From NCBI GenBank assembly GCA_965369385.1, contig CBDUQP010000001.1, positions 4,628-68,627 of the forward strand: 64,000 bases of DNA. The letters run 5' to 3'. The number at the start of each line of letters is the position of its first letter. The first letter of the stretch is position 1. The stretch comes from an uncultured Phycisphaerales bacterium. Lineage in GTDB: Bacteria; Planctomycetota; Phycisphaerae; SM23-33. Positions 11,402 through 57,008 of this stretch are shown in pieces. Under the pieces are notes generated by a model. That model was not told the origin of the DNA, ran no database searches, and saw only the letters and a list, made by a program, of their open reading frames with translations. Position numbers and translations under genes: made by a program.

Positions 11402-11525
11402 GTAGTACTGCGTATCACGTAGAACGATAGACGATAACCTGCCGGCAGTGGCTGGCAGGCAATAATTTGCGAATGTCGTACCTGTTAAGTGCGCCGTCCA
11501 GAACAAGAATCTGCGAGGTAGTCTT

Positions 11526-12980: not shown

Positions 12981-12984
12981 TGCC

Positions 12985-21128: not shown

Positions 21129-21153
21129 TGTATTCACCTGGTCCACCGATGCC

Positions 21154-22086: not shown

Positions 22087-22090
22087 CGCC

Positions 22091-24166: not shown

Positions 24167-24191
24167 AATTAACCCTCTGTAGAAACTGGAC

Positions 24192-26162
24192 CTATATCCG
24201 AATCTTCGCATTATACACCAACCATTCCACACACACCACCGCCAGCACCACCATCACGAACCATGGCCAGAGCTCAACATTGCTGGCGACGACCGGGCTT
24301 TCCTGCAAAGTCACTTCCCTGCCGGAAAGCAGCATTTTGTCGGCCGGCGATATGTCACTCTCGTCCCTGTCAAGCAAGTTCACCGCAAAAGCTTCTTCGG
24401 GCCGATCATCAATGCCGGCACGATAAATTCCCACTCGAGACGTGTTGGCATACCGCACCGCTCCGCCATCACTGCGTATCTCATCGAACGCCCCGTCAGG
24501 CCGGCTGATCTTCACCTTGCTTCCGTCAGGCAGACCCTCGATGGAAAATGCCTGCAACACTTCCAGGTTCACTCGATCTCCCGCACCGGAATCCTGCAAC
24601 AGGTAACTCAGCGAGTTGTAGCAGAACATCACGAAACCGGGCTCGAACGGCCAGTTGGTATCCATGGGATTAAACGATGCGATAACAAACACACTGCCCG
24701 ACCTTCGCACCACGGCCATTGCGGGCGTATCGTTGAACTCCGCAAGTATCTCCGCATCGCGAGGCAAATCCATCTTCCGGCATTTTGCGGCAAACACGTT
24801 TGCCATGCCCACCGCCTGCAACACGGGATGGCGGTTTCGCCAATCGACGATCGCCTGGCTCTTGAGCTCGTCACCCATCGTCACGCCTATGCCCGGTGGT
24901 GCAGCGCCGAAAACGATATACTTGCAACGCGGCAATGACGCCGGAACGTAGCCGTCAATAACCACCACATCGTATGACGTCTCCACCTGTCCGCTGTCAC
25001 CGCTCATGGCGTCGAACTCAGCCGGTGTCTTAACGTCGAGCAGTTTCACAGGGCATGCCTTCAACGCCAACTCCAGTGCTATATTGCCCGTGGTCACCAG
25101 CAGCACTCGCATCTTCTTGGCCGGCTGCAATACCGCCCAGGCCGCGTTGTCTGCCTTCAGGGCGTCGTCGCAGACCGCCCTCACCTCAATAATGCCCTGG
25201 CCCTCGTGGGAGAGCGTGAAAGTTACCGACATGCTGCCGGCCTGGCTGTTCTTCCCTCGCTTGCCAGTCCGTGGTTTCAGCGTCAATTGCCTCACTGCCT
25301 TGGCCTTGCCATCGACGCTGAGCTGCACGTCGCAAGTTACCGACTTGTCGCCATAATTCGCAAGCTCCGCGAAAACGGACACTTCAGACGCCTTCTCGTA
25401 AGAACGCCGCGCCTGCATGGAGACCACCGCAACGTTATCGTTGCGATTGCCGATTCGATGGAAGATAAGCTCCCCCTCAGCAAGTGCTATCTCGTCAAGA
25501 TCACTTATGCGACCATCGCTGAACAGCTCCAGCTTCGCCGGCGGGCGGCCTGTCTGGGCGGCAGTCGTGTTCGATGTAGCTCCCGAAAACGCGGTGGCTA
25601 CGACTATCGCTTCAGAAAGTGCACTCTTGCCGTCAGATTGCTCTATGGAGTCTATCGCCGCCAGGAGCCTGGCCTTGTCGGAAGTAAAATTGCATAAAAC
25701 CTTCGCGCCATTATCAAAGGCAACGATCATCGCTTCATCACTATAATCACGAAGCCATTGTGTCTGGCTTCGTAGCGATTCAACCAGCACCCGGGACTGT
25801 AGCTTGGCGATGTCAAGACGAGTTTCGCCGTCTTCCATCGTGCTCATGCTGCACGAACGATCTATCAAAATCACGTATCGCTTGGCCTGGCCGGCGTTCA
25901 TACTAAGCACCGGCCGACCAAGGGCGACCAGTATCGCCGCCAATGCCAGCAACTGAAGTAGCAGCAGTATGCTCTTGCGGATTCGCTGCAACGGCGCGTT
26001 GACCCGCAAATCCTGCACCGCCCGCTTCCACAGGAACGTGCTGGATACCTCCATTTCCTTACGCTTGAGCTTGAGGAAATACAGCAGCACCAGCAGAGGC
26101 ACTGCCACCCCGGCTGCTATCAACGCTGTTCTTGCTGCCATCCATCCCATATCAAACTCCAA
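24192..26162 (-). CDS. BatA-like VWA-domain protein (N-terminal double-TM 'aerotolerance' domain, VWA, C-terminal TM)
   Basis: N-terminus ALIAAGVAVPLLVLLYFLKLKRK then a second TM (BatA_N pattern). VWA MIDAS DRSCSMS. C-terminal TM WPWFVMVVLAVVCVEWLVY. Confidence 0.75.
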   Translation of the reverse strand: MEFDMGWMAARTALIAAGVAVPLLVLLYFLKLKRKEMEVSSTFLWKRAVQDLRVNAPLQRIRKSILLLLQLLALAAILVALGRPVLSMNAGQAKRYVILIDRSCSMSTMEDGETRLDIAKLQSRVLVESLRSQTQWLRDYSDEAMIVAFDNGAKVLCNFTSDKARLLAAIDSIEQSDGKSALSEAIVVATAFSGATSNTTAAQTGRPPAKLELFSDGRISDLDEIALAEGELIFHRIGNRNDNVAVVSMQARRSYEKASEVSVFAELANYGDKSVTCDVQLSVDGKAKAVRQLTLKPRTGKRGKNSQAGSMSVTFTLSHEGQGIIEVRAVCDDALKADNAAWAVLQPAKKMRVLLVTTGNIALELALKACPVKLLDVKTPAEFDAMSGDSGQVETSYDVVVIDGYVPASLPRCKYIVFGAAPPGIGVTMGDELKSQAIVDWRNRHPVLQAVGMANVFAAKCRKMDLPRDAEILAEFNDTPAMAVVRRSGSVFVIASFNPMDTNWPFEPGFVMFCYNSLSYLLQDSGAGDRVNLEVLQAFSIEGLPDGSKVKISRPDGAFDEIRSDGGAVRYANTSRVGIYRAGIDDRPEEAFAVNLLDRDESDISPADKMLLSGREVTLQESPVVASNVELWPWFVMVVLAVVCVEWLVYNAKIRI

Positions 26163-26199: not shown

Positions 26200-27111
26200 C
26201 TACTTGAGCAATCCCGTTCTTCGCAGGTAGGTGAGCACGAGCTTTTCCACTGAATCGCCCGAGTTAATCAATCCGTAAATCGCACCGCGCTTCTTGCAGA
26301 ACTCCTTAATCTCATTGCAGTACGCGGTGAGCGCCTTGTTGTAGTAGTTCAACAACGCCCGACTCATTGTCACTTCCGAAACATCCACGTCCTCAACGTC
26401 AACGAGCTTCACATCTCCGGTGAGCTCCGGCGATAGTTCCTGCGGGCTCAACAACTGAAACGCATACAAGTCGGAATTGCACCCGATAAGACGCCTCAAT
26501 CCATCGTCAAAACCTTCCTTCAGCAGAAAGTCCGATATCACCACCACCACGCCGCGAGAATCATTGCCGCCCGCCAGTTCCCTGCAACTCCTGCTGAAAT
26601 TCGATACGCCTTCGGCGCGAGTGCTTATCAACATTTCCGCCATCTGAGGCAGGTAGCGGCGGCCTCGCATGTTCGCAACGCGTCCGACAATACCGTCGGC
26701 GAACGCACTAATACTCACACGATTATTGTTCGCAAGCGAAACATACGCCAAAGCCGCCGCCATTTGCTTGGCGAATATCTCCTTCGACGGCTCGCCCAGA
26801 GACATCGACCCGCTAACGTCTATCGCTATGTGAACCGTCAAGTCCTGCTCTTCGAGGAACAGCTTCAGGAAGAACTGCTCAAGGCGGCCGTAGATATTCC
26901 AATCCACCAGACGAAGATCGTCGCCGACCACATACGGGCGATGATCGGCAAACTCCACGCTCTGCCCGCGACGCTTGCTGCGGCGCTCGCCCTGCAACTT
27001 GCCCTGGAGAATCTTGCGGCTCATGACGTCCAGCGCATCCAAGCGTGTCATGAAGTCCGGACTAAGAAACTCCTTCAGCTTGCCGGCAGATGTTCTCGCG
27101 AGTGTGGTCAT
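26200..27111 (-). CDS. DUF58 domain protein (VWA-like, MoxR partner)
   Basis: Conserved DUF58 segment EFADHRPYVVGDDLRLVDWNIYGRLEQFFLKLFLEE, then a VWA-like DVSGSM. Overlaps the MoxR gene by 4 nt. Confidence 0.85.
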   Translation of the reverse strand: MTTLARTSAGKLKEFLSPDFMTRLDALDVMSRKILQGKLQGERRSKRRGQSVEFADHRPYVVGDDLRLVDWNIYGRLEQFFLKLFLEEQDLTVHIAIDVSGSMSLGEPSKEIFAKQMAAALAYVSLANNNRVSISAFADGIVGRVANMRGRRYLPQMAEMLISTRAEGVSNFSRSCRELAGGNDSRGVVVVISDFLLKEGFDDGLRRLIGCNSDLYAFQLLSPQELSPELTGDVKLVDVEDVDVSEVTMSRALLNYYNKALTAYCNEIKEFCKKRGAIYGLINSGDSVEKLVLTYLRRTGLLK

Positions 27112-28133
27112 GATGCCTCAACGGTTCTGTCGGTAATCTGCGAGGTCTTCTCGAGTATGTCACTCAGCACTTCATCGTTCGATATGCCCTCGGCCTGCCC
27201 TTCGAAGTTCAGTATCACTCTGTGCCGCATAGCCGGCAGGTATGCCTTGGCGATGTCGTCATAGCTCACGTGATACCGCTCATCCAGCATCGCCAGCACC
27301 TTCGCCGCCAGCACAATAGACTGCACCCCGCGAGGCGAGCCCCCGAACCGCAGATATCTGTTAGTGATATCCTGCGCAAATTCGCCGCCGGGATGTGTCG
27401 CCAGCACCAGGCGGATCGCGTAGTCCTGCACATGCGATGCAATTGCCACCTGCTGCACGAGCTGCTGAGCAGCGATAATCTGCTCGCCCGCGACAACTGC
27501 TTCGGCGGTCGGATTGTGCCCAGCCGTCGTGCGGTCCAGAATCTCCCGCAACTCGTCACGCCCGCTGTAGGGGATAATCAACTTGAAGAAGAATCTGTCG
27601 AGCTGGGCTTCCGGCAGCGGGTACGTGCCTTCCTGTTCAATGGGGTTCTGCGTAGCCAGCACACAGAAAGGCTCGGACAACTTGTAAACCACGCCACCAC
27701 TGGTCACCGAGTGTTCCTGCATCGCCTCAAGCATCGCCGATTGCGTCTTCGGCGTGGCACGGTTAATCTCGTCGGCAAGTATGATCTGACCGAATATGGG
27801 ACCATGCTGAAACTCGAACTCGCGACGGCCGGTTTGCCGGTCTTCCATGACCACGTTGGTACCTATGATATCCGCAGGCATGAGGTCAGGCGTGAACTGT
27901 ATGCGGCGAAACTTCAGCGACAGCGCCGAGCTGAGCGTGCGAACGAGAAGTGTCTTGCCCAAACCGGGCACCCCCTCCAGCAGCACGTTTCCACCGCAGA
28001 ACAGGCAGACCAGTACATCCCTGACAATGTCATCGTGCCCAACTATCACCTTGCCGATCTCGGCGCGGAGCGAATCAAACATCTGCCGGAACTCGCGGCA
28101 TTGAGATTCCACGTTATGTGTTTCTTGTGACAT
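27108..28133 (-). CDS. MoxR-family AAA+ ATPase
   Basis: Walker A GVPGLGKT, Walker B ILADEINRATPKTQSAMLEAMQE, and the typical MoxR C-terminal lid. Confidence 0.9.
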   Translation of the reverse strand: MSQETHNVESQCREFRQMFDSLRAEIGKVIVGHDDIVRDVLVCLFCGGNVLLEGVPGLGKTLLVRTLSSALSLKFRRIQFTPDLMPADIIGTNVVMEDRQTGRREFEFQHGPIFGQIILADEINRATPKTQSAMLEAMQEHSVTSGGVVYKLSEPFCVLATQNPIEQEGTYPLPEAQLDRFFFKLIIPYSGRDELREILDRTTAGHNPTAEAVVAGEQIIAAQQLVQQVAIASHVQDYAIRLVLATHPGGEFAQDITNRYLRFGGSPRGVQSIVLAAKVLAMLDERYHVSYDDIAKAYLPAMRHRVILNFEGQAEGISNDEVLSDILEKTSQITDRTVEAS

Positions 28134-28134: not shown

Positions 28135-31100
28135 CTATTTATCTCCTGTATTGCCCTTGGGGCCCTTCAGCCGCCCTGCCGACTTGCGCTTTGTCCGCAG
28201 GAGTTGCTGCAAATAAGGGGCTTCGTTCTGGCTGTTCTTGTCTTCTTTTTCTTTTTGCGGCGATGTTTTCGGTGGGGTCTGTTTGGCAGTTCGCGTCACG
28301 TCGACAGTCTCAAGCTCATCCTGCTCGGTGCCGTCGGGCGTTTCAAAACGCGCTGCCCCTTGGGCGTCCATGGTATCTCTGACCGCACTTCGGCGCCTCT
28401 GCAATGCACTGAGTGTGCTGTCGGCCTGAACTGCTCGGCGGCGGAAACTGAGCAAGCCCGCGACGCCCCGGTACATGGCGCGAATATCTATTGAAACCCG
28501 TCTGATGGCTACGTCCAGCAGGAACAGGACTATCCACACGATAATCAGCGGCATGGTGATTTCGCGAGAATCCTCAAACACGCCAAGTTTCTCGCGCGAG
28601 AACAAGTCCGCCTGCTCCGGATCGCCGGTCAATACACGTCCGCCGGTCATTCTCGCTACCTGCGAAAGCAATGCGGCGTTGTCTGTCAGATCGCGAAACT
28701 CGGCTGCGTATGGAATGGTTACCGCGCACAGGGCCGACTTTGTCTTGCTGCCCGCCCCGAGCTTTCTGTACTTGACGTTCAGCAAATAGCTGCCCGGTGC
28801 CCGGGTTCTGAAGGCTGCACGATACGCGCCTGGTCCCACCTGCGAGATGCCCAGCTTCCGCGTTGCCATATTCGGGCCCGTGACCTCGGCTGAGATGGCT
28901 GCGAACTGGACGAACTTCCCTTCTGCATCAACGGCTTCGACACCGACATCAACACTTCCGCCGTGGATATCGGTGAATATCTCGCAATCACGCGAACCGG
29001 TGGACCTGCTAGTCCACTGCACCACCTGCTCCCAGAACCCACTAAAGCCACCCCACCCGACCCATTGCTCGGCCCACCTGCCATCGGCGGTGCTCATAAA
29101 TGCCACGCTGCGTCCCAGACCGGCCTGGCAGGTAGCCATTATCGGATCGTTATCGGGCCCACGTAACACCACGTTTGCGAAACCCCCCTTGTCGCCGGTG
29201 AGCATGTATCCATCGAGTCTCGGAAGGGAAGTTATGCCCTTGATTATTTCACTACCGCCTGAAACGATCGTCGGCGTGAATGTCTTCTCAACTATCAGCG
29301 ACCGCCGCACGACACGCGCTTCTTTCACGAATATCTGCGGAAGGCTGGCCGCATTCTTCACATTGTAGAACCTGCCGCCGGTTGCCCTGGCGATTTTCTT
29401 CAGGCTGAAAACATCATTAGGCGAATGTGGGAACACAGCCACGCCCGTGCAGGTAATGCCCGCCGACTTGAACTTCTTCAGCAACGCAGGGCTCGGCGGG
29501 CTGGGGTCGCCATCGCTTATGATAATCATATGCTTCTGGACCGCGCCGCATGTCTGTAACTTCTTCAGGACTGTCGTCATCGGTGCGGCAAAGTCCGGCA
29601 TGTCGCCCATGTTCATGGTGTTGATGGCATTGTTGACAGCCTTCTTGTCGCCCGCTTCCGAAAGCGGATGCACCCACGTTCCGCCATCCGGACCGCCGTA
29701 AAACGCAGCCACTCCAACCAGATCTTTACGACTCAGTGCATTGACAGCCGCCTTGGCAACCTGCCTGCCCCAATAATTGCCCCGGGGCATCTCGCAAGCG
29801 TGCATCAGCAGCACCAATGCCCCTTTGGGCATCTCCTTCTTGTGAGGAGGATCCATATCAACCGGCAGTATCCGCGCAGTGGGCGAACCAATCCATCCGC
29901 CCGCACCGTAGGAATTCGGGCCACCGATCATCAACAATCCGCCCGCTGTATCCTCCACGTACTTGCACAACAATTCCTGCTGGGCATAAGTGAACGATCC
30001 ACTGTCGGCGTCGATCAACACCACTGCGTCAACACCCATCATGGCAGCGAGATTATCGGGAAACTCGCCATACGTCTTCTGCCTCACCTGCATGCCCGCC
30101 TCGGAAAGAACATGCGTAAATTCTTCCGATGCCTTATTGTCGCCCACTATCAGGACATGCCCCTTTCCCGAAACCATCGTTATGGCTGCGGCCCGGTTGT
30201 TGCGGGATATCCCATCAGCGGCCGAATCGTCACAAATGAAGTGTGCCTCGTACTCGTACACTCCACGCGAACCAGCCGGCAGGACGACAGTCTTCACGTT
30301 AGTGCCCGGCTTGAGCGTTACCTTCATACCAAGGCCGGCTTCATCGTCCGGCGACAGATCAACAGGCCGCCCGTTCAGCATAAGCTGCAACTGCCCTGTC
30401 GCATGTGAGGTGCTGTTCAACACGAAACGAAGCGGGATGCTCTGTCCGTTGAGCGCCTGCGACGGCGCCGCCAGGCGAGTGAAAACCACCTCCCGTTTGT
30501 GATCGTACCGGAGCGGCAGAACATCTATCGGGATTCCATTGGACGCCGCAATACGCGCCACAGCCGTCAGGTCGCCATCGGTCTCGTTACCGTCGCTTAT
30601 CAGCAGCAGGCGGGTGGCAGTGTCCGGAGGCGCTATCGCCATCGCCATCTGCACGCCATCAGCAAGCCGGCTCTGATGCCCCAGAGCGGATATGCTGCGT
30701 CTGCGGAACTCAGGGTTCGGGCTGGGCAGTTTGGATATCTCCACATGCTCGGCTACATCAACAATTGCCAGCCGATCATTCGGGCGTTTGCCCTCAACAG
30801 CCTTCGCAAGGAAATCCACACCATAACTTTCCAACGTTGCAGGCGCACCATTCTTTGTCTTCGCTCCGGTGCCGACTGCAATGCCCGATACCGAAAGGCT
30901 GCGATCTACCACCGCGACAACTGTAACATCCTCACTTCGCTGCCCGATCATTGGCCTGGCAAGCAGAACCGCCAGCAACACTATTACCGCCACGCGCATA
31001 ACTATCGCCATCATCCGACGAACAATGCCGATTCCCTTCTGGCAGCGCAGAGCGATCACAACTGCCGGCACCGACAGTAAGCCCGTCAGCAGCCACCATG

Positions 31101-31143
31101 GCTGACCAAAATAGAGACTACTCGCTGCGATCATGGTTTCCAT
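28135..31143 (-). CDS. Large membrane protein: BatA-like N-terminal double TM, two VWA domains and a GATase1-like domain
   Basis: N-terminal TMs (WWLLTGLLSVPAVVIAL; VAVIVLLAVLLARP). VWA MIDAS VVDRSLSVSG. GATase1-like AMMGVDAVVLIDADSGSFTYAQQELLCKYVEDTAGGLLMIGG. Second VWA IIISDGDPS. C-terminal TM plus a basic tail. Confidence 0.7.
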   Translation of the reverse strand: METMIAASSLYFGQPWWLLTGLLSVPAVVIALRCQKGIGIVRRMMAIVMRVAVIVLLAVLLARPMIGQRSEDVTVVAVVDRSLSVSGIAVGTGAKTKNGAPATLESYGVDFLAKAVEGKRPNDRLAIVDVAEHVEISKLPSPNPEFRRRSISALGHQSRLADGVQMAMAIAPPDTATRLLLISDGNETDGDLTAVARIAASNGIPIDVLPLRYDHKREVVFTRLAAPSQALNGQSIPLRFVLNSTSHATGQLQLMLNGRPVDLSPDDEAGLGMKVTLKPGTNVKTVVLPAGSRGVYEYEAHFICDDSAADGISRNNRAAAITMVSGKGHVLIVGDNKASEEFTHVLSEAGMQVRQKTYGEFPDNLAAMMGVDAVVLIDADSGSFTYAQQELLCKYVEDTAGGLLMIGGPNSYGAGGWIGSPTARILPVDMDPPHKKEMPKGALVLLMHACEMPRGNYWGRQVAKAAVNALSRKDLVGVAAFYGGPDGGTWVHPLSEAGDKKAVNNAINTMNMGDMPDFAAPMTTVLKKLQTCGAVQKHMIIISDGDPSPPSPALLKKFKSAGITCTGVAVFPHSPNDVFSLKKIARATGGRFYNVKNAASLPQIFVKEARVVRRSLIVEKTFTPTIVSGGSEIIKGITSLPRLDGYMLTGDKGGFANVVLRGPDNDPIMATCQAGLGRSVAFMSTADGRWAEQWVGWGGFSGFWEQVVQWTSRSTGSRDCEIFTDIHGGSVDVGVEAVDAEGKFVQFAAISAEVTGPNMATRKLGISQVGPGAYRAAFRTRAPGSYLLNVKYRKLGAGSKTKSALCAVTIPYAAEFRDLTDNAALLSQVARMTGGRVLTGDPEQADLFSREKLGVFEDSREITMPLIIVWIVLFLLDVAIRRVSIDIRAMYRGVAGLLSFRRRAVQADSTLSALQRRRSAVRDTMDAQGAARFETPDGTEQDELETVDVTRTAKQTPPKTSPQKEKEDKNSQNEAPYLQQLLRTKRKSAGRLKGPKGNTGDK

Positions 31144-33548
31144 ACCTGCACGCGGTTATTGCCTGAATCCACAACAAACACCCTGTCCTCTTCATCCACC
31201 GATACGCCCCACGGCGATACCAGCTGGCCCTTCTCGCGGCCGCTCTTGCCGAAAGTGCCCAGAGATTCACCTTGCGGGTTGAACATCTGGACCCGGTCAT
31301 TGCCATACTCGCAGACCACAAGAGTGCCATCGTCCATCACATCCACATCATAAGGATACCTCAGTTGCCCATCGCCTCGCCCGAGCGAACCGATATACCT
31401 GATCAACTTGCCGCCCAATTCGTAGACAGCTATGCGATGATTGCACGCGTCGGCCACGTAGAGGCGCTTTCGCTGCTGGTCTATGCACATGCCCGACGGC
31501 CTGGATAGCTCGCCATCACCTTCGCCGAATCGGCCGAAAGTATACATGAACTCGCCTTCCATCGAAAACACAGTCACACGATCATTTCCGCCGTACTCAC
31601 TGACAAACACCCTGCCGTCCTGGCTGAAGACGACGTCGGTGGGATAGATGAACTCCCCATCGCCCCTGCCCATCCGGCCGAACTGCCGCACATACTTGCC
31701 ATCAAGCGTGAACACAGCCACACGATGATAGTGGGTGTCGGCGATATACAGATATCCGTCGGGCCCGCACGCAATGCCAACGGGCTTGCCCGCACGCGTC
31801 ATCGGCATGGTAAACATCTTCAGCGGTTTGCCCTTGCGCGTGAACTTCCGAACAAATCCCGCCTTGTCTATCACGAACACAGAATCGTCAGAGCCGACCG
31901 ATATCGCCCGCGGATACATGAACTCCGCCCTGCCGCGTCCCGTACCGCCGAATATGTATTGCACTTCCGCATTGTCGCCGGTTCGCGGTTTGTCGCATCC
32001 TGCGGGACAGAGCATCAGCAGGCAAAGCACAATCGCAGCCGCGCCAACCAACCGCCTTCGCAGCAGCTTGAATACCCCTATCAGCCCCACGCACAAAATC
32101 GCGTATGTGCCAAGCAGCACCAGGCACGATGCGATGACGTGCTGATCGCGTGCGTAGTGCATCTGATTCAAAAGCCGCTGGGCGAAGCTGGCGACACCTG
32201 CCGGCAGCAACACCATGCTCGCTGACAGCTCCGTCATGCCAAGCATCATCACCACCAGCACCGCACCCACAAACGCCGGCCAAGCCAGCGGAAAGCGAAC
32301 ACGCCAGAACGTACGCCACACACCTGCACCGTCCAGCATTGCCATTTCGCCAAGCCGCGCGATGCGCCAATCCCACGTGAGCTTCAGCAACACCAGCGCC
32401 ACCCCCGCAAAACGAGCCGCCTGCCCCAATGATACCACGCACCAATGCTGACCTACGCTGCTGGAAAGCCCCACTGCCCCGAGCAATCGCAGCAACCCCA
32501 CCGCCACAAGTGAACCCGGAAGGAACATCGCGACGAACAGGCTGATGTGCATTATCGCAGACACGGCCGCACCAATGCGTCCGAACCCGCCAGCCGCCAT
32601 CGCGCCGCCAGCCATCAAGATCGCACCAAACGCCGCCAAGGCAGACGTGGCCAGCGACATGATCAAATCATCCGAATGCAGCGTGAGGAACTGCTTGATG
32701 GGAGAGAGGCTGCTCAGATTCGCCACAAGCAGGCCTACAGGCAATATCAGCGATATCAGCACCAACAGACATATGATTCCACACCGCCAAATCCCCGCTC
32801 TGTGCTGCGGAGTTCCCGCTGATTGCTCAGACGACCATCCACCGCTTCTGCGCCACAGCCCCACGCCCACGACAAGCCCCGCGCACGCCAGCGGCCAGGC
32901 GGCCCGCACAACCGCACCTTCACTGCCCGTCAGTTCATACAGTACCGCCAATTGCGTTCCCACGGTCTTGACGCCTGCCAGGTGGAACGCGCCGAACTCG
33001 CACAGGCACAGCGAGAAACACACCGCAAACGCCAGCGATATAGGCCGCGCCAGCAGCGGAAGGGTGATGCGCGTAAACCTGCGGACCCTGCCTGCATCAA
33101 GACACGCCCGGTCGCTCACCGTGCCCGCTGCCCGCCAGCCCTGTGCTATCACCAGCGCCGCAAGCGGCCAATACCACATGACCAGTGTTCCGCATGAAGT
33201 GATCGCGGCCGTGAGTTGAGCGCGCGACATATCCGCAGCCAGCCAGCCGCCCAGTGATCCCGTAGGATCAAGCAGCAGTGACCATGCGTAGTACAGCAAG
33301 TAACGCGGCATGAGCAGTGCCAGCAGCATCAGCGTCATCAGCAGCGTTCTGCCGCCGGTGAGCCTGGCCAGGACCATGCCGGGAACAATGCCCAGCAGAA
33401 CCCCAACTGCCGCAGTTAGCGCAGCCAGCATCGCCGAGTGCCAGAACATCCCCAGCACATCTCCGCCCACATCCGGGCCGGCAGCATCCAGCGGCGCTAA
33501 ACATATCGCGACCAGCGGGCCGAGAACAATCGCCACACACGCACACAT
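31131..33548 (-). CDS. Iron(III)/thiamine-type ABC double permease (FbpB-like) fused to a C-terminal NHL-repeat beta-propeller
   Basis: Two permease halves, each with an EAA-like loop. The last permease helix ends ...GVFKLLRRR, then an extra hydrophobic segment with a lipobox-like LCLLMLCPAGCDK. Then six NHL-type repeats (YPRAISV..., LYIADTHYHRVAVF, YPTDVVF, PSGMCID..LYVADACNHRIAVY, YPYDVDV, PWGVSVD..VFVVDSGNNRVQVW). One uninterrupted frame of 805 codons. Confidence 0.7.
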   Translation of the reverse strand: MCACVAIVLGPLVAICLAPLDAAGPDVGGDVLGMFWHSAMLAALTAAVGVLLGIVPGMVLARLTGGRTLLMTLMLLALLMPRYLLYYAWSLLLDPTGSLGGWLAADMSRAQLTAAITSCGTLVMWYWPLAALVIAQGWRAAGTVSDRACLDAGRVRRFTRITLPLLARPISLAFAVCFSLCLCEFGAFHLAGVKTVGTQLAVLYELTGSEGAVVRAAWPLACAGLVVGVGLWRRSGGWSSEQSAGTPQHRAGIWRCGIICLLVLISLILPVGLLVANLSSLSPIKQFLTLHSDDLIMSLATSALAAFGAILMAGGAMAAGGFGRIGAAVSAIMHISLFVAMFLPGSLVAVGLLRLLGAVGLSSSVGQHWCVVSLGQAARFAGVALVLLKLTWDWRIARLGEMAMLDGAGVWRTFWRVRFPLAWPAFVGAVLVVMMLGMTELSASMVLLPAGVASFAQRLLNQMHYARDQHVIASCLVLLGTYAILCVGLIGVFKLLRRRLVGAAAIVLCLLMLCPAGCDKPRTGDNAEVQYIFGGTGRGRAEFMYPRAISVGSDDSVFVIDKAGFVRKFTRKGKPLKMFTMPMTRAGKPVGIACGPDGYLYIADTHYHRVAVFTLDGKYVRQFGRMGRGDGEFIYPTDVVFSQDGRVFVSEYGGNDRVTVFSMEGEFMYTFGRFGEGDGELSRPSGMCIDQQRKRLYVADACNHRIAVYELGGKLIRYIGSLGRGDGQLRYPYDVDVMDDGTLVVCEYGNDRVQMFNPQGESLGTFGKSGREKGQLVSPWGVSVDEEDRVFVVDSGNNRVQVWKP

Positions 33549-33589: not shown

Positions 33590-34669
33590 TCAGTCCAATA
33601 TCCTCCCGGCCGTCCGTATCGCCCGCGACAGCTCGCCGGCTATCTTCTCATAGGGAACGTCTAATCGCTTGACGACTGCATATTGCTGATACTTGCTCGC
33701 CAGTGATTTTCGCACGGGCATATTGTGCGAATCGCTTTCGGCGAGCATCTTCTCCACCTGCTCGCCAAGCACGAACGCCATGAACTCGCGGGCCTCCGCA
33801 GAGTTCGGTCCGCCAGCGATGAGCGCAGCTGTGTTCGGTATGGCAAGCGTACCCGCACCGTTCTGGTCCAGCATGTTCATGGCAATCGGCCAGCCGTTTC
33901 GCACGCCGGCGTGAACATCGTCTGTATCGGTCATGCAAATGTCGGCCTGTCCGGACGCCACCATGCGGACTGCGGTGCTGTTGCTGTCTACCAGTCGCAC
34001 ACCATTTGCCTTGAGAGCCTTGAGGATTTCCTCCGCGCGAGTTCTTCCGTAATGGGCGAACCAACTGGCCACATCGCCGCCGGTTGTCCCAAACTCCGGC
34101 CGCGCCATCACGATTCTGCCCTTCCACTTGGCATCAAGCAGATCTTCGAGGCGTTTTGGAGCTTCCTTGGCACCCACGCGTTTGGTGTTGTATGCAATTA
34201 CTCTCGCCCGCATCGCGAACGCATACCAACGTCCTTGCGGATCAGCGAGTCCTTTGGGCCAGTCCTTCACGTCATCAGATTCGTACTTCGCCAGCAGACC
34301 ATCATGCCCAAGGCGTATGGTGTGGAATATCTCGCTCGACCAGAACACGTCCGCAGTCGGGGAGTCCTTCTGTGCTCGCAGACGCTGCACGAGGCCCACT
34401 GTCTTGCTCGATTCAGTATCAAACCTGGCGAGCACCTTTATGCCTGTACTGGCCTCGAATGCTGCGATGATGGGTTCTGCCACCTCCTGATCCACAGAGC
34501 AGTAGACGACAACCTGCCGCTCGTCGCCATCGGCCTTGCCGCAGCCGACCAGTCCGACAGCAGACATGAACAGCGCAATAACAATCGACGCAACAATCGT
34601 AATCGACGATATGCCAGCCGACACCTCACCACGCAGCGAGCGCCGGCAATATACATTACGCATCCGCAA
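33590..34669 (-). CDS. Iron(III)/thiamine-family ABC transporter substrate-binding lipoprotein (FbpA/AfuA-like)
   Basis: Lipoprotein signal ...VGLVGCGK. SBP-bact-1-type sequence (VVVYCSVDQEVAEPIIAAFEASTGIKV...). Directly upstream of the FbpB-like permease. Confidence 0.8.
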   Translation of the reverse strand: MRMRNVYCRRSLRGEVSAGISSITIVASIVIALFMSAVGLVGCGKADGDERQVVVYCSVDQEVAEPIIAAFEASTGIKVLARFDTESSKTVGLVQRLRAQKDSPTADVFWSSEIFHTIRLGHDGLLAKYESDDVKDWPKGLADPQGRWYAFAMRARVIAYNTKRVGAKEAPKRLEDLLDAKWKGRIVMARPEFGTTGGDVASWFAHYGRTRAEEILKALKANGVRLVDSNSTAVRMVASGQADICMTDTDDVHAGVRNGWPIAMNMLDQNGAGTLAIPNTAALIAGGPNSAEAREFMAFVLGEQVEKMLAESDSHNMPVRKSLASKYQQYAVVKRLDVPYEKIAGELSRAIRTAGRILD

Positions 34670-34810: not shown

Positions 34811-36496
34811 TCAGTCACCGTCCGACCTTTTCTTTGCTTCAGCTTCGAGTTGGCTGAAGTACTTCTTCACCGACGCTTCGTAGCGCCGGGGAATGCGGTT
34901 ATCGCCTATGGCATCGGCGGCTTGTTCTTTGGCAGCGGTCACAACAATCTTGAGTTCGCGAGAGGCCTGCCCCTTTGCGTGGCGGCCCCTGAACTCCCAG
35001 CTCGCTATCGCGGGCCCGGCCTTGCGGGCATTCTTCACACGTTTTCGCTCACTTGATGTATCTTCCGGATCGCCGGTCGGCCTGGCGCCCAATCCTCGCC
35101 CCCGGCCCATTCCATCTCCATTACCATTGCCGTCCCCGTCCCCGTCCCCGCCTTCGGCCTCCATATCATCTTCATCTTCTTCCCCCATCGAATCGGCAGC
35201 CCTGGCTATCTCGTCCAGGGCGGCCTGCGCGATCTCCATATCCTGGACCATGCCTTCCAGGCGGCTCAGTTGGTCGGCGAGACCCTCAAGGTCCTCCGGC
35301 GACACATCGTCGCCATCCTTGGCGCAGTCAGCGGCCGCGTCGCCCAGTTTTTCGCACATTTCCGACGCTCGCTGGGCATCCCTGACCTTATCCATGATCT
35401 TGTTGATCTTCTCTTCGCTCAGGCCCTGCTCACGAAGCGCCTTGCGAAGTTGACTGTCACCCATCTTTGCGGCATCTTTGCTCAGCCCGGCTTTGGCGAG
35501 CGTGTCGGATAGTTCCTTCTGATCCTTGGATATCTTGTCGAGCTGTTTGGCCAGAGCCTGCAACTGTTTCGCCAGCGCCTCACGCTCGGCCTTGGTGAGC
35601 TTTCCGCCTGCGAGTTTCTCCGCAAGCTTGCGGGCTTCGGCGGCGGCGGTTTTGTAATCGCCTCTGGCAAGTGCGTTAATCATCTTGCGAGCCTGATCGC
35701 CCTTTCCGCTCCGCAGTTTCCGCATCTTGCTGTTGAAGTTGTCCTTTGCTCCGAAACCCTTGCGGCGGGAGTGATCGTTTACACTGCGAGACAAATCGCC
35801 AAGTTTACGAATTACCTGGCGCCTCAGGTCCGACGGTTTCAGGAGATCAAGAGCCTTGGCAATGTCGCCTGCCTGTTCGGTCAGCGAATCATCACCGAGC
35901 TGGCTCACAACCGCCTTCACCGATGCCACCGCCTTCTTGGCATCACTGGCGGCCTTCTGCTGCTTGTCTTTGGCGCTCTTACGGGTTTCCCTTTCGGCGT
36001 CGCTGCCGAGGAGGTCCATCGAAGGAACGAACACGAATACCGCGACGACTGCGATCCATATAGTCAGACCGTAAGCCCATGCCTTCGATGGGCGAATCGG
36101 GAAATGCGGTTTGAGCTGAATGTCGGCCGCCCGCATGTGAGCCTCTTGCACGCTGGCCCGGGCGAACTGGTTGTCCACGTCAGCGAGTGAAATAGCAGTG
36201 CTGAATCGCTCACGAAGGCCCAGGCGAGTGTCTATTGCCAAGGCTGCGTCCATCTGCGAAGGACGCCTGGTCCACCAGCGATAGGCAATGGTCGCGGCTG
36301 CGCACAGTCCCAAAACCCAGCAGACCCAAGGCACCACCACAGGTGCAGCTACCAGACGCTGAGAGAGAATACCAACCAGGGCAAACAGACCGGCCACCGT
36401 AACCACCAAAGCCGCCTGCCGAAGAAACACGTCCGCAGCCATAAACAGCCTTGCGATCCTGAGCTTACGATCAAACGCATCCGGTTTCGTGTCCAT
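34811..36496 (-). CDS. Membrane-anchored coiled-coil protein with acidic low-complexity tail
   Basis: Start moved to ATG 36496 (MDTKPDAFD); the track's N-terminal 78 aa look non-genic. Three TM helices, then about 300 aa of K/A/E-rich coiled coil, then a DGDGDGNGNGDGMGRGRG low-complexity segment. No recognisable catalytic motif. Confidence 0.45.
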   Translation of the reverse strand: MDTKPDAFDRKLRIARLFMAADVFLRQAALVVTVAGLFALVGILSQRLVAAPVVVPWVCWVLGLCAAATIAYRWWTRRPSQMDAALAIDTRLGLRERFSTAISLADVDNQFARASVQEAHMRAADIQLKPHFPIRPSKAWAYGLTIWIAVVAVFVFVPSMDLLGSDAERETRKSAKDKQQKAASDAKKAVASVKAVVSQLGDDSLTEQAGDIAKALDLLKPSDLRRQVIRKLGDLSRSVNDHSRRKGFGAKDNFNSKMRKLRSGKGDQARKMINALARGDYKTAAAEARKLAEKLAGGKLTKAEREALAKQLQALAKQLDKISKDQKELSDTLAKAGLSKDAAKMGDSQLRKALREQGLSEEKINKIMDKVRDAQRASEMCEKLGDAAADCAKDGDDVSPEDLEGLADQLSRLEGMVQDMEIAQAALDEIARAADSMGEEDEDDMEAEGGDGDGDGNGNGDGMGRGRGLGARPTGDPEDTSSERKRVKNARKAGPAIASWEFRGRHAKGQASRELKIVVTAAKEQAADAIGDNRIPRRYEASVKKYFSQLEAEAKKRSDGD

Positions 36497-36715
36497 AAGT
36501 AACCCCACAATGCCACAATGACAGTTGTTACTGCTATTTTGCCCAAAAAGGCTCTGTTTTGCAATGCTCAACCGCTTCAATGGCAAGGCTCTAAAAAAGA
36601 GGCATAACAGCACCTTGGAGATCGCCCGCGCAAACCTTATTATGGAATAACAATTGTGACTTGTCGCCGAGTGACAAGATTCACACCAACCCAGCAAAGA
36701 TTGCAAAGGACAAAC

Positions 36716-38155
36716 ATGATATTCCGCCAAACGTCGCGCCGATTCGTTCTAGTTGCTCTTGTAGCCCTTTGTGTTTTCCTGCCTGCCTGCCTGCCTGCAC
36801 CCCAGCCGCAGCCGCAGGCCAAATACATATTCTACGTAATCGGCGACGGCATGGGCCCAAGCCAGGTGGAAGCGGCTGAGCGTTTCATACAGGCACGCCC
36901 CGAAATGAGCGGCCGCGACGACTACGTGTATCCAAAACTGGCGATGAACCTGCTGCCGCACTCCGGCACGTGCACTACACACTCAAACAACAGTGCCGTA
37001 ACCGACTCAGCAGCTGCCGGTACCGCGCTTGCCTGCGGAGTGAAGACCGACGGAGGCGTAATGGCCATGAGGCCGGACCGAAAAACCCCCGTGCCGTCAA
37101 TTGCTCACGTCCTGAAGAAGAACGGCTATCGAATCGGCATAATCTCGACAGCCGAAATTGATCACGCCACCCCCGGCGTTTTCTATGCTCACGAGCCAAG
37201 CCGCGGCAATTACTACGAAATCGCCACAACAATCGGCAAGACGGGCTTTGAATACTTCGCGGGCGTCGGCTGCGAAAGCGCGTTACCACACCGCCTGAAA
37301 GGCCGCCCCAGCCCGTTTGAAGTCATCCGCGCCGACGGCTACACCGTCTGCCGCACTATGGATGAGCTTCGCAAAGTGCAGACAGGCAACCGTCGCGTGG
37401 CATGCGCACTGAACGTTCCCTGGGAGATCGACCGCAAGGCGAACGACCCCCGACTCGTTCACATGGTGCGCGAAGGCATTCGCCTGCTGGGCACCGACAA
37501 AAACTTCTTCATGATGATCGAGGGCGGCAGGATAGACTGGTCATGCCACGAGAATGACGGAGCGTCGACCGTTCTTGAAACAATCGCCATGGACGAAGTG
37601 ATCCAGGAACTGATCACCTTCTATATGAAGCACCCCACCGAAACGCTGATCGTGGTGACTGCCGATCACGAGACGGGCGGGATGCAGCTGGCTGGCGACA
37701 AGCACGCCGAGGCTCGCCGGATATTGCCGCGTCAGAAGATACTGGCTGAACACACAGCCCCGATACTCAAGAAGCTTCGAGCTAAGAAACTGCCTGCGGA
37801 CAAGGCAATCGTTGAACTCGATAAGATCTTCGGTTTCGGCAAGCTCACGCCCGAAGAGCACAAACTGCTCGCCGACACCTGGACAGCCACGCTCTCAGGC
37901 GACCCGAAGACAAAGAGCAAATTCAAGAGCATGTACGGCCGTTACGATCCGGTCGAAATCCTCTGCACGCGATTCATGAACAGGAAGGCGGGAATCGCCT
38001 GGCGAACCTTCGGCCACAGCGCCACGCCGGTTCCCGTCAGAGCAGTCGGCGTTGGCGCCAAGGCCTTCGCGGGCAGAACCGACAACACCGACCTGCCCCG
38101 CCTGATCCTGAAAGCCGCCAACATAAGCGAAGCCAACCTGGCAAAACGTAAGTAG
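36716..38155 (+). CDS. Alkaline phosphatase (PhoA family), lipoprotein
   Basis: Signal/lipobox VALCVFLPACL. Metal-site motif YVIGDGMG. Active-site serine motif TDSAAAGTALACG. IDHATPG and VTADHETGG motifs. Confidence 0.85.
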   Translation: MIFRQTSRRFVLVALVALCVFLPACLPAPQPQPQAKYIFYVIGDGMGPSQVEAAERFIQARPEMSGRDDYVYPKLAMNLLPHSGTCTTHSNNSAVTDSAAAGTALACGVKTDGGVMAMRPDRKTPVPSIAHVLKKNGYRIGIISTAEIDHATPGVFYAHEPSRGNYYEIATTIGKTGFEYFAGVGCESALPHRLKGRPSPFEVIRADGYTVCRTMDELRKVQTGNRRVACALNVPWEIDRKANDPRLVHMVREGIRLLGTDKNFFMMIEGGRIDWSCHENDGASTVLETIAMDEVIQELITFYMKHPTETLIVVTADHETGGMQLAGDKHAEARRILPRQKILAEHTAPILKKLRAKKLPADKAIVELDKIFGFGKLTPEEHKLLADTWTATLSGDPKTKSKFKSMYGRYDPVEILCTRFMNRKAGIAWRTFGHSATPVPVRAVGVGAKAFAGRTDNTDLPRLILKAANISEANLAKRK

Positions 38156-41023: not shown

Positions 41024-41058
41024 GGGCCTGGAAGCGAGAGTTTTCAGGCCCTTTCTTT
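41024..41058 (+). terminator. Rho-independent terminator after tRNA-His, overlapping the convergent pflA stop
   Basis: GGGCCUG-(13 nt loop)-CAGGCCC followed by UUUCUUU. Confidence 0.6.
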
Positions 41059-41778: not shown

Positions 41779-41789
41779 GTCATTTCCTA

Positions 41790-42035: not shown

Positions 42036-42037
42036 CC

Positions 42038-56614: not shown

Positions 56615-57008
56615 ATATCTTTCCTTCACCTCTTCAACAACGATTCGGCGATGCTGCAGGGCGTCACAAACTGCCCTCGCATCGTCCGGAATCACAAAGC
56701 AAGTCAGCCATTATCGCCAGAGCGAATCGAATTACCAGTATTGCGTATGCCCGCACACAGAGCAGGTGAGCCCCGATGTGCATCGGGATCTTCGACGCCG
56801 GAGGCGGGCAGGTGAAACAACAAGGGCGAACAATCACCTGCGAGACTGATTTCAAATAGGCTCGCTCACCTGCGGTCTCCTGGCCACATGTCCAGCGAAA
56901 GATGCGATGTAATTTCGCTCCTGATCAACTCGTTTTATTACGTTTTGAGCACAAAACGGGGGAAATAGCTGAATAATCGTAACTTCAGAAGAATATGCCA
57001 TATTTGGG

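What the first reader, a model, noticed from the sequence alone, without database searches (positions are those of the whole stretch)
31131..33548. ABC double permease fused in-frame to a periplasmic six-bladed NHL beta-propeller, with a vestigial lipobox at the junction
An FbpB-type permease (two 6-TM halves) continues without a stop into one extra hydrophobic segment and then six NHL repeats. The extra helix would place the propeller in the periplasm, so the fusion makes topological sense. At the junction, LCLLMLCPAGCDK looks like a lipoprotein signal plus lipobox. This suggests that a once-separate NHL lipoprotein gene fused to the permease. The permease gene has a cognate iron-type SBP upstream and feeds directly into the MoxR/VWA operon. 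No ABC ATPase is adjacent.
Basis: seen in the sequence. Interest (0 to 1): 0.6.

Follow-up and report, generated by a model that had tools for sequence, protein, structure and literature searches.

The report
Permease–propeller fusion with conserved internal lipobox
In hundreds of Planctomycetota one gene encodes both a membrane transporter subunit and a periplasmic propeller protein, joined by a strictly conserved lipoprotein signal that probably lets the cell cut the two apart and lipid-anchor the propeller; I found no description of such an internal signal.

Summary
The 805-aa ORF (31131-33548, minus strand) is real. It has a 12-TM FbpB-like double permease, a 13th hydrophobic segment and a six-bladed NHL propeller. 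It is not an artefact: 386 species-level genomes encode a relative, and 161 of the 172 loci read carry the fusion in one frame. All are Phycisphaerae/Sedimentisphaerales-type Planctomycetota.

"Vestigial" is wrong. The junction is a complete lipoprotein signal under strong selection: a basic patch, 15-17 uncharged residues and L-[TA]-G-C. The Cys is invariant in 120/120 close relatives and persists down to 27% permease identity. Some relatives are split. Their permease ends right after TM12, and a separate NHL gene starts with its own lipoprotein signal. Fused and split forms interleave on the tree. Lgt is encoded in the same window.

Best reading: one gene gives two mature proteins. Lgt and LspA would cut at Gly517|Cys518 and release a lipid-anchored propeller beside its permease. 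Cleavage is inferred, not shown.

The conserved core is permease, NHL, a ~1000-aa VWA/GATase1-like protein and MoxR. No importer-type ABC ATPase lies next to the permease in any of 172 loci. The upstream FbpA-like binding protein lacks the Tyr-Tyr iron ligands. The physiological role is unknown.

The parts
31131..33548 (-). Whole ORF, 805 aa: permease-NHL precursor
32844..33548 (-). Permease half 1 (aa 1-235, TM1-6), including the first EAA-type coupling loop at aa 143-166 (33051-33122)
   Evidence: Hydropathy; AF2 helices; NCBIfam PhnU2/ModB partial hits over aa 31-198; EAA alignment.
32058..32792 (-). Permease half 2 (aa 253-497, TM7-12). It includes the second EAA loop 'LGEMAMLDGAGVWRTFWRVRFPLAW' (32280-32354) and the family-signature periplasmic loop 'FAQRLLNQMHYARDQ' (32139-32204)
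   Evidence: Foldseek match to FbpB 9j4r_A.
32052..32069 (-). Cytoplasmic basic patch K494-LLRRR499, the n-region of the internal signal peptide
   Evidence: R494/R497/R499 columns conserved in 111, 109 and 97 of 120 sequences.
32007..32051 (-). TM13, the h-region (aa 500-514)
   Evidence: Sequence varies but stays hydrophobic. The uncharged stretch before the Cys is 15-17 aa in 187 of the 221 non-identical fused proteins in which the Cys could be placed. AF2 pLDDT is 40-53.
31995..32006 (-). Lipobox P515-A-G-C518. The predicted LspA cut is between G517 and C518. Asp519 is at +2
   Evidence: Cys in 120/120, Gly at -1 in 118/120, Asp at +2 in 89/120. The window copy has Pro at -3, where the family has Leu in 85/120.
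31968..31994 (-). Low-complexity tether (aa 519-527)
   Evidence: Poorly conserved, pLDDT below 50.
31134..31967 (-). Six-bladed NHL beta-propeller (aa 528-805)
   Evidence: Pfam NHL E 4.9e-30; PDB phmmer Thin/TRIM32 8.7e-84 and TRIM71 2.3e-50; Foldseek TM 0.91.
33590..34669 (-). FbpA-family solute-binding protein with its own N-terminal lipobox (LVGC)
   Evidence: SBP_bac_6 E 1.8e-24. Best PDB matches are HitA, TtFbpA and FutA. The Tyr-Tyr ligands are replaced by an invariant TDTDD.
34811..36730 (-). Conserved first gene of the cluster: membrane-anchored coiled-coil/acidic protein with no family assignment
   Evidence: Syntenic in the loci that reach that far. No credible Pfam or NCBIfam hit.
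28135..31143 (-). ~1000-aa membrane protein with VWA_2, VWA and GATase1_like domains. Its start overlaps the stop of the permease-NHL gene (ATGA at Met4)
   Evidence: It lies directly downstream of the NHL coding region in 148 of 165 loci and in every clade examined.
27108..28133 (-). MoxR AAA+ ATPase
   Evidence: AAA_3 E 8.6e-62.
26200..27111 (-). DUF58 protein
   Evidence: E 1.3e-33.
24192..26162 (-). BatA N-terminal domain + VWA protein
19299..24232 (-). Extension of the cluster found only in the main clade: 713-aa unknown protein, GldA/DrrA-like ABC ATPase (21154-22086) and ABC-2 double permease (19299-21164)
   Evidence: Absent from the far-clade clusters.
55787..56695 (-). Lgt, prolipoprotein diacylglyceryl transferase. 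This enzyme would modify Cys518
   Evidence: PF01790 E 4.3e-65.

Best explanation
The gene encodes a precursor of two membrane-associated proteins.

Proposed steps:
1. The first 12 TM helices form an FbpB-fold double permease whose C-terminus is in the cytoplasm.
2. A short basic loop (KLLRRR) and a 15-residue hydrophobic segment form an internal lipoprotein (type II) signal peptide. It sends the C-terminal NHL propeller across the membrane.
3. Lgt, which is encoded in the same window, adds diacylglycerol to Cys518.
4. LspA cuts between Gly517 and Cys518.

The products would be a 517-aa permease that keeps the spent signal peptide as a dispensable 13th helix, and a 288-aa lipid-anchored six-bladed NHL propeller. 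Asp at +2 hints that the propeller stays in the inner membrane. Making both from one ORF delivers the propeller in 1:1 ratio right beside its permease.

The pair is the membrane core of a conserved envelope module: permease, NHL lipoprotein, a ~1000-aa VWA/GATase1-like protein and a MoxR AAA+ ATPase. Usually an FbpA-like binding protein, DUF58 and BatA-VWA are also present.

What is shown: architecture, topology logic, conservation, split relatives and synteny.
What is inferred: lipidation and cleavage.
What is guessed: the physiological role. My guess is a periplasmic binding or receptor partner for a non-iron solute, or for the periplasmic VWA proteins.
For: 1. The junction has every element of a type II signal. 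The basic n-region is conserved. Cys is present in 120/120, Gly at -1 in 118/120, T/A/S at -2, and Leu at -3 in 85/120.
2. The PROSITE PS51257 core pattern is found at the junction in 211 of 239 fused proteins. Elsewhere in the same proteins, which have 12 other TM helices, it occurs 0.31 times per protein.
3. The uncharged stretch before the Cys is 15-17 residues in 187 of the 221 non-identical fused proteins in which the Cys could be placed. That is signal-peptide length, not TM length.
4. The h-region sequence itself drifts freely.
5. The x-G-C motif survives in fused relatives with only 27-34% permease identity.
6. Split relatives exist in all clades examined. Their permease stops within about 15 aa after TM12. 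The next gene encodes the NHL protein with its own N-terminal signal and lipobox: L087, L154, L167 'LLLLLILPGC', L170 'MRAFALGLPVMLLMAGC', L171/L172. So TM13 is not part of the permease, and the mature NHL protein is a lipoprotein.
7. Fused and split forms interleave on a permease tree, with at least 8 fused/split sister pairs. This is expected if both give the same mature products.
8. In two independent AF2 models (window protein and a far-clade homologue) the TM13 end, lipobox and tether form the main low-confidence stretch (the window model has only one other, residues 500-502). TM13 is therefore not predicted to pack into the bundle.
9. Lgt is encoded at 55787-56695.
Against: - There is no experimental or proteomic evidence of cleavage or lipidation.
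- I know of no documented natural substrate of Lgt/LspA whose signal lies 500 residues into a polytopic protein. Literature searches found none.
- TM13 is tied to TM12 by only 6 residues, which could hinder access by LspA.
- The window's own lipobox has Pro at -3 (CPAGC). This fails the strict PROSITE/DOLOP pattern.
- LspA was not seen in the window.
- The Asp+2 retention rule was established in Enterobacteria, not Planctomycetota.
Confidence: 0.62

Rival explanations
1. The protein stays in one piece as a 13-TM permease with a covalently tethered periplasmic propeller, as in OpuA/GlnPQ-type fusions. The G-C motif is conserved for another reason, such as helix capping, a disulfide, or lipidation without cleavage.
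For: Tethering extracytoplasmic domains to ABC TMDs through an uncleaved signal anchor is established (OpuABC, PMC2861598). The AF2 pTM of 0.82 exceeds what the permease alone could give, since it is 63% of the chain. This suggests a defined propeller-permease arrangement that a tether would favour. The loop between TM12 and TM13 is very short.
Against: A plain anchor needs no lipobox. Yet Cys, Gly at -1, the -3/-2 preferences, the basic n-region and a 15-17-residue length are all kept. Split relatives make the same propeller as a free lipoprotein and a 12-TM permease. Frequent fused/split switching is hard to reconcile with an obligatory covalent tether.
Confidence: 0.25
2. The lipobox is a neutral relic of a recent gene fusion.
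For: The window's copy is slightly off-consensus (Pro at -3). Fusion of once-separate genes is supported by the split relatives.
Against: The fusion is old and widespread. The motif is invariant across more than 220 non-identical sequences, down to 27% permease identity, while the neighbouring h-region and tether residues vary.
Confidence: 0.04
3. The fusion is an assembly, frameshift or gene-calling artefact.
For: None beyond the general error rate of metagenome assemblies.
Against: The same single frame appears in 161 independent loci from different samples and assemblers, and in the 120 best database proteins.
Confidence: 0.01
4. System-level alternative: the permease, binding protein and an ATPase encoded elsewhere form an ordinary FbpABC-type (iron) importer that merely sits next to a MoxR/VWA operon. 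The propeller is an accessory of the importer.
For: The fold is FbpB-like. The EAA-x3-G coupling motifs are kept in both halves in all clades. An FbpA-family binding protein is directly upstream in 149 of 165 loci. FeoB lies downstream in the window.
Against: No importer-type NBD lies next to the permease in 172 loci, 2.3 Mb in total. The binding protein is missing in several clades (L170, L171, L172), whereas NHL, the big VWA protein and MoxR are always present. The Tyr-Tyr iron ligands are replaced by an invariant TDTDD. Linkage to VWA/MoxR holds at 27-30% permease identity, so it is not accidental adjacency.
Confidence: 0.3

Closest known systems
FbpB/HitB/SfuB-type double permeases of type I ABC importers (solved example: Thermus thermophilus FbpBC, PDB 9j4r)
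   Same: There are two 6-TM halves in one chain. The overall fold matches (Foldseek TM 0.74 over 522 columns). Cytoplasmic EAA-type coupling loops are present in both halves. An FbpA-family binding protein is usually upstream.
   Different: Identity is only 20%. The window protein misses Pfam BPD_transp_1 at E<=0.01. It has an extra 13th hydrophobic segment plus the NHL propeller. No importer NBD gene is adjacent in any of 172 loci. The gene is locked into a MoxR/VWA cluster. The binding protein lacks the Tyr-Tyr iron site.
ABC importers with a substrate-binding domain fused to the TMD through a signal anchor (OpuABC, GlnP; PMC2861598)
   Same: An extracytoplasmic domain is encoded in the same chain as the TMD, C-terminal to an extra membrane segment. 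Other species have the same domain as a separate lipoprotein (B. subtilis OpuAC versus L. lactis OpuABC).
   Different: The fused domain here is an NHL propeller, not a binding-protein fold, and a separate binding protein still exists. As far as that paper describes, the OpuA anchor is an uncleaved signal anchor. Here a full lipobox is conserved.
Bradyrhizobium japonicum FbcH, a cytochrome b-c1 polyprotein cut at an internal signal peptide (Thony-Meyer et al. 1991; cited from my own knowledge, not found in the held library)
   Same: One gene yields two proteins. A polytopic membrane protein is followed by an internal signal peptide that exports a periplasmic domain and is then cleaved, giving two subunits of one complex.
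   Different: That case uses signal peptidase I. Here the signal is type II (Lgt/LspA), which would also lipid-anchor the released domain. Cleavage here is only inferred.
Bat / MoxR-DUF58-VWA 'aerotolerance' clusters (Bacteroides batA-E; Borrelia BB0170-0176, PMC5700661; Leptospira, PMC3557215)
   Same: MoxR AAA_3, DUF58 and BatA-N + VWA proteins occur in the same order. In Borrelia the BatA-type VWA domain faces the periplasm, where an NHL lipoprotein could meet it.
   Different: Classical Bat operons have no FbpB-like permease, NHL protein or FbpA-like binding protein. The function of Bat clusters is itself unresolved.
NHL-repeat propellers (TRIM32/Thin, TRIM71, TRIM2/3, Brat; bacterial PknD sensor domain; ScyF)
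   Same: The fold is a six-bladed NHL propeller with 31-33% identity to the Thin and TRIM71 NHL domains (18-25% to TRIM2/3 and Brat). The ScyF model matches at E 4.9e-47 but below its cut-off (160.9 versus 350 bits).
   Different: It is periplasmic and lipid-anchored. The residues conserved in the family are the generic repeat motif (YP.., D..NHR), so no catalytic or ligand site can be read off. It is not a ScyF equivalog.

Membership tests
Type I ABC importer permease (BPD_transp_1 / FbpB-like double permease) | Two 6-TM halves with N- and C-termini in the cytoplasm | tested here: met
   Hydropathy and the positive-inside count; AF2 helices; Foldseek match to FbpB 9j4r_A, TM 0.74.
Type I ABC importer permease (BPD_transp_1 / FbpB-like double permease) | EAA-x3-G...LP coupling loop in each half | tested here: met
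   aa 143-166 and 399-423. The motif is conserved in the main clade. The E..DG core is kept, but LP is degenerate in the far clade.
Type I ABC importer permease (BPD_transp_1 / FbpB-like double permease) | Significant match to the family profile (PF00528) | tested here: inconclusive
   The window protein has no PF00528 hit at E<=0.01 and only weak NCBIfam hits (PhnU2 4e-8, ModB 2e-6). Most homologues carry a precomputed PF00528 hit.
Type I ABC importer permease (BPD_transp_1 / FbpB-like double permease) | A cognate importer-type NBD, normally in the same operon | tested here: not met
   None next to the permease in the 64-kb window or in 172 related loci. A trans-encoded NBD could not be searched for.
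Bacterial lipoprotein (type II signal peptide; PROSITE PS51257) | Basic n-region, uncharged h-region, lipobox [LVI][ASTVI][GAS]C | tested here: met
   Family: 211/239 match the PS51257 core at the junction; residue statistics. The window copy itself deviates at -3 (Pro).
Bacterial lipoprotein (type II signal peptide; PROSITE PS51257) | Signal at the N-terminus (Cys within the first ~15-35 residues) | tested here: not met
   Cys is residue 518 in the fused forms. The feature is met in the split relatives, for example L170 with Cys17.
Bacterial lipoprotein (type II signal peptide; PROSITE PS51257) | The modifying machinery is present in the organism | tested here: met
   Lgt at 55787-56695, PF01790 E 4.3e-65. 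LspA was not seen in the window.
Bacterial lipoprotein (type II signal peptide; PROSITE PS51257) | Actual diacylglyceryl modification and LspA cleavage | not testable with these tools
   Needs labelling, globomycin treatment or mass spectrometry.
NHL-repeat six-bladed beta-propeller | Six NHL repeats forming a closed propeller | tested here: met
   Pfam NHL E 4.9e-30; 24 strands in the AF2 model; TM 0.91 to 6xg7.
FbpA-type ferric-ion binding protein (the upstream SBP) | Tyr-Tyr pair that ligates Fe3+ | tested here: not met
   HitA 'NNYYWY' aligns to 'TDTDDVHA'. TDTDD is invariant in 74 orthologues. That the YY pair is the iron ligand comes from my own knowledge of FbpA structures.
Bat-type MoxR-VWA cluster | MoxR (AAA_3) + DUF58 + BatA-N/VWA membrane proteins in one operon | tested here: met
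   synteny.

The most novel reading that the evidence does not exclude
The FbpB-fold permease and its NHL lipoprotein are not an ABC importer. They are the membrane core of a MoxR/VWA-driven envelope machine that works without any ABC ATPase. The EAA loops would couple to another cytoplasmic partner, or the pair would be the client that MoxR-VWA assembles or loads, as NorQD does for NorB. In most lineages this core would be made as a bacterial polyprotein cut by LspA at an internal site.
Probability: 0.15. Interest if true: 0.85.

Novelty: new variant of a known kind. Interest (0 to 1): 0.62.

Why it matters
1. If the internal signal is used, the substrate range of the Lgt/LspA pathway is wider than assumed. 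Lipoprotein predictors (PROSITE PS51257, and tools such as LipoP and SignalP) look only at N-termini, so they would miss this whole class.
2. The case is clean and cheap to test, using a tagged construct, globomycin and a Cys mutant. Fused and split natural variants serve as built-in controls.
3. It ties an ABC-permease fold and a periplasmic propeller to Bat-type MoxR-VWA clusters. Their function has been unclear for 25 years, so this gives a new handle on them.
4. Current annotations ('6-bladed beta-propeller', 'ABC transporter permease', 'SMP-30/gluconolactonase') each describe half the protein and miss the cluster.

Tried and rejected
- Assembly artefact: rejected.
- 'Vestigial lipobox': rejected on conservation.
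- The GldA-like ATPase at 21154-22086 as the missing NBD: unlikely. It is DrrA/GldA-type, sits beside an ABC-2 permease, and is absent from the far-clade clusters that still have the permease.
- The second ATPase at 9282-10022: it also belongs to an ABC-2 system.
- Iron as the ligand: not supported, because the Tyr-Tyr pair is lost.
- ScyF membership: below cut-off.
- Aravind-type 'MoxR-vWA-beta-propeller ternary system': the bpMoxR hit is weak (38 bits against 207 for AAA_3), so I did not pursue it.
- phmmer of the permease against PDB found nothing. Only the fold search did.
- Literature searches for an internal lipobox, a lipoprotein polyprotein, NHL + permease, or MoxR + NHL returned nothing relevant.
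- The van der Heide & Poolman 2002 review and the FbcH papers are not held.
- The afdb50 fold library was unavailable.
- The exact sequence P0001 could not be located on a contig.
- Enzyme active-site reading of the NHL domain: the invariant residues are just the repeat motif, so nothing can be concluded.


Full report
**1.

Window 31131-33548 (minus strand) is one uninterrupted 805-codon ORF. Hydropathy finds 13 hydrophobic segments. Lys/Arg counts are 22 in the loops predicted to be cytoplasmic and 6 in those predicted to be periplasmic. This gives an N-in topology, 12 helices, a KLLRRR cytoplasmic turn, a 13th helix going outward, and the C-terminal domain outside.

The C-terminal 280 residues are a six-bladed NHL propeller:
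- Pfam NHL E 4.9e-30 and DUF5128 7.8e-17.
- PDB phmmer Thin/TRIM32 8.7e-84 and TRIM71 2.3e-50.
- 24 strands in the AF2 model.
- Foldseek TM 0.91 to 6xg7.

The N-terminal 520 residues are very diverged. They have no Pfam BPD_transp_1 hit at E<=0.01 and only weak NCBIfam hits to PhnU2, ModB and GlcU. There is no PDB hit by sequence. The AF2 model (pLDDT 83, pTM 0.82) nevertheless superposes on the Thermus thermophilus FbpB double permease, 9j4r_A: TM 0.74 over 522 columns at 20% identity. Both halves keep an EAA-type coupling loop. 'FbpB-type double permease' is therefore right at the fold level.

**2. The fusion is a large, old family, not an artefact**

A search of 5.8 billion proteins gave 440 hits. 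The best 120 are all 750-848 aa, 47-56% identical, and cover 90-100% of the query. A scan of one genome per species found relatives in 386 genomes. The 80 fetched are MAGs labelled Sedimentisphaerales, Phycisphaerae or Planctomycetota. Some carry 'Pirellulales' or 'Anaerolineales' labels that are probably binning labels.

A search of 1.84 billion cluster representatives with the permease part alone found 1331 relatives. Among them are fused proteins of 820-850 aa with only 27-34% permease identity. Of the 172 loci fetched in total, 161 carry permease and NHL in one frame.

**3. The junction is a used lipoprotein signal, not a vestige**

In an alignment of the query with 119 homologues:
- The Cys (C518) is invariant, 120/120.
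- Position -1 is Gly in 118.
- Position -2 is T, A or S in 106.
- Position -3 is Leu in 85.
- Position +2 is Asp in 89.
- The three Arg/Lys columns after TM12 are conserved in 111, 109 and 97 sequences.
- The hydrophobic core between them varies freely in sequence.

Across 225 non-identical fused proteins from all clades, the Cys could be placed in 221. The uncharged stretch before it is 15-17 residues in 187 of them. That is the length of a signal-peptide h-region plus lipobox, shorter than a normal TM helix.

The PROSITE PS51257 core pattern occurs at the junction in 211 of 239 fused proteins. Elsewhere in the same proteins, with 12 other TM helices, it occurs 0.31 times per protein. The x-G-C motif is still present at 27% permease identity.

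In both AF2 models, of the window protein and of a far-clade homologue, the main low-confidence stretch (pLDDT below 50) is the end of TM13, the lipobox and the tether; the window model has only one other, residues 500-502. The 13th helix is therefore not predicted to be part of the packed bundle. The window also encodes Lgt at 55787-56695 (PF01790, E 4.3e-65).

One caveat applies to the window copy: it reads CPAGC, with Pro at -3, which is off the strict consensus.

**4. Split relatives give the strongest argument**

In several lineages the permease ends within about 15 residues after TM12, in a short basic tail. Examples are P0123, P0124, P0128, P0135, P0138, P0139, P0147, P0292, P0180, P0297, P0337 and P0249.

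Where I could read the context, the next gene encodes the NHL protein with its own start codon and a hydrophobic leader ending in a lipobox (a basic n-region is evident in most):
- L087 '...VLVCMFGVCGCDK' and L154 '...ATVATCGCGSGK'.
- L167 '...RVRRSHLLLLPLLLLLILPGCTEE', 12 nt after the permease stop.
- L170 'MRAFALGLPVMLLMAGCRSGE', a full PS51257 match.
- L171/L172 '...ACGGCDE' and '...ACAGCDE'.
- L168 keeps an orphan permease followed by a 62-aa remnant, '...LLPASCDK...' plus the first blade.

So the permease works with 12 helices, and the propeller is a lipoprotein in its free form.

On a rough NJ tree of 62 permease domains, fused and split forms interleave, with at least 8 fused/split sister pairs. 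Repeated switching suggests the two states are functionally equivalent. That follows naturally if the fused precursor is cut at the lipobox.

The broader, mostly ~520-550-aa subfamily suggests that split is the older state. However, the tree is unrooted and crude.

**5. Mechanism proposed, and how sure each step is**

| Step | Status | Estimated probability |
|---|---|---|
| Sec/YidC-dependent insertion of TM1-12; TM13 acts as an internal export signal, so the propeller is periplasmic | Follows from topology | ~0.9 |
| Lgt lipidates Cys518 and LspA cuts G517\|C518 | Inferred from conservation and split relatives | ~0.6 |
| The lipoprotein stays in the inner membrane next to the permease | Hint only | Not estimated |

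The hints for the third step are the Asp at +2, which is an E. coli rule, and the pTM values. pTM is 0.82 and 0.73, above the ~0.63 ceiling that the permease alone could contribute. I take this as AF2 being fairly confident about the relative placement of the propeller and the permease (the ceiling is my own estimate from the TM-score formula).

I found no paper describing an internal type II signal or this family. The conceptual precedents are:
- The B. japonicum FbcH cytochrome b/c1 polyprotein, cut by signal peptidase I (from my own knowledge).
- SBD-TMD fusions such as OpuABC, whose B. subtilis counterpart is a free lipoprotein (PMC2861598).

**6. Genomic context**

In the window and in every main-clade locus long enough to show it, the gene order is identical:
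1. A coiled-coil membrane protein of unknown family.
2. An FbpA-like binding protein.
3. The permease-NHL gene.
4. A ~1000-aa VWA/GATase1-like membrane protein, whose start overlaps the permease-NHL stop (ATGA).
5. MoxR.
6. DUF58.
7. BatA-VWA.
8. A ~700-aa protein of unknown family.
9. A GldA/DrrA-like ABC ATPase.
10. An ABC-2 permease.

More distant clades keep a shorter cluster. The last three genes are absent in L165, L166, L169 and L170. In L170, L171 and L172 the binding protein is also absent. The permease, NHL, the large VWA protein and MoxR are present together in every cluster examined (in L167 MoxR lies beyond an integrase insertion); the exceptions are L154 and the decayed L168. That quartet is the conserved core.

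A BatA-type VWA domain faces the periplasm in Borrelia (PMC5700661). The propeller and the VWA proteins could therefore meet there.

**7. The missing ATPase and the ligand**

A tblastn scan with ABC NBDs over all 172 loci (2.3 Mb) found:
- Only the syntenic GldA-like gene, in 40 loci.
- Four unrelated NBDs, each 4 kb or more from the permease.

The window's two ABC ATPases both sit beside ABC-2 permeases. The coupling loops are conserved. So either an NBD is supplied in trans, which I could not test, or the loops serve another partner.

The binding protein is closest to the ferric-binding proteins HitA, TtFbpA and FutA (E ~1e-24). But the Tyr-Tyr iron ligands ('NNYYWY' in HitA) align to 'TDTDDVHA', and TDTDD is invariant in 74 orthologues. 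'Iron-type' is therefore a family label, not a substrate call.

The conserved residues of the NHL domain are the generic repeat motif, so no site can be read from them.

**8. Verdict**

The fusion, the topology, the origin and the operon link all hold. 'Vestigial' is wrong. 'Iron' and 'no ATPase' need qualification.
- The best explanation is a one-gene, two-protein precursor processed at a conserved internal lipoprotein signal. It forms the membrane core of a permease-NHL-VWA-MoxR module.
- I rate it a new variant of known kinds: ABC TMD fusions, signal-peptidase-processed polyproteins and Bat-type clusters. Interest is 0.62. The comparative case is strong, unusual and cheap to test, but no experiment backs it and the physiological role is open.

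Noticed in passing
window 55787-56695 (-): Lgt (prolipoprotein diacylglyceryl transferase, PF01790, E 4.3e-65) lies 22 kb from the fusion gene. The enzyme needed for the proposed modification is therefore present in this organism.
   Followed up: partly
window 33590-34669 (-): The FbpA-family binding protein has an invariant 'TDTDD' where ferric-binding proteins have their Tyr-Tyr ligands. Other invariant patches (DTES, WSSE, SNST) are rich in acidic and hydroxyl residues. The ligand is probably not Fe3+-tyrosinate. Compare AfuA, an 'iron' SBP that binds sugar phosphates (from my own knowledge).
   Followed up: partly
window 31995-32006 (-): The window's own lipobox is CPAGC, with Pro at -3. 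Relatives have Leu at -3 in 131 of 221 and Pro in only 7. This copy may be processed less efficiently than its relatives.
   Followed up: partly
window 34811-36730 (-): A 639-aa membrane-anchored protein with a long coiled-coil and an acidic C-terminal part is always the first gene of the cluster. It has no Pfam or NCBIfam family.
   Followed up: no
window 22091-24232 (-): A 713-aa protein with no family (weak DUF7408 hit) and a possible N-terminal lipobox (LLLAAC) sits between BatA-VWA and the GldA-like ATPase in all main-clade loci. It may be the auxiliary (GldG-like) part of the ABC-2 system.
   Followed up: no
window 5999-14382 (+): A second ABC-2 exporter cluster: an OEP-family outer-membrane lipoprotein (lipobox LLLCGC), an NPCBM_assoc protein, an ABC ATPase (9282-10022), two ABC-2 permeases and a TPR/HEAT protein.
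   Followed up: partly
window 16418-19018, 41044-44353, 57693-60562: FeoB, pyruvate formate-lyase with its activase, and anaerobic ribonucleotide reductase NrdD with a radical-SAM activase are present. The organism is an anaerobe, which fits Sedimentisphaerales.
   Followed up: no
L168 10001-11778 (CP070790.1, 4.28-Mb Planctomycetota MAG): An orphan 524-aa permease is followed by a 62-aa ORF consisting of the NHL signal peptide, the lipobox (LLPASCDK) and the first blade only. No VWA or MoxR gene is nearby. This looks like a decaying copy of the module.
   Followed up: partly
L167 15770-20300: A block with a phage-type integrase, HEPN_Swt1 and DUF5343 is inserted between the big VWA gene and MoxR, splitting the cluster. 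MoxR there is called as two fragments.
   Followed up: no
L165 19769-20422 and L166 12701-13339: In two far-clade loci a TPR + Iron_traffic (YggX-like, PF04362) gene lies convergently right after the BatA-VWA gene. With FeoB next to the cluster in the window, this is a weak recurring hint of an iron link.
   Followed up: no
L154 5593-12362: In one high-GC lineage with the split arrangement, the four-gene unit (coiled-coil protein, SBP, permease, NHL) is not followed by VWA or MoxR genes. It is the only locus seen where the unit is detached from the MoxR cluster.
   Followed up: partly
window 31134-31143: The big VWA gene is listed as starting at 31143. Its fourth codon is an ATG that overlaps the permease-NHL stop as ATGA, matching the 4-nt overlap seen in relatives (L001, L002, L004). 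The true start is probably Met4, which implies translational coupling.
   Followed up: partly
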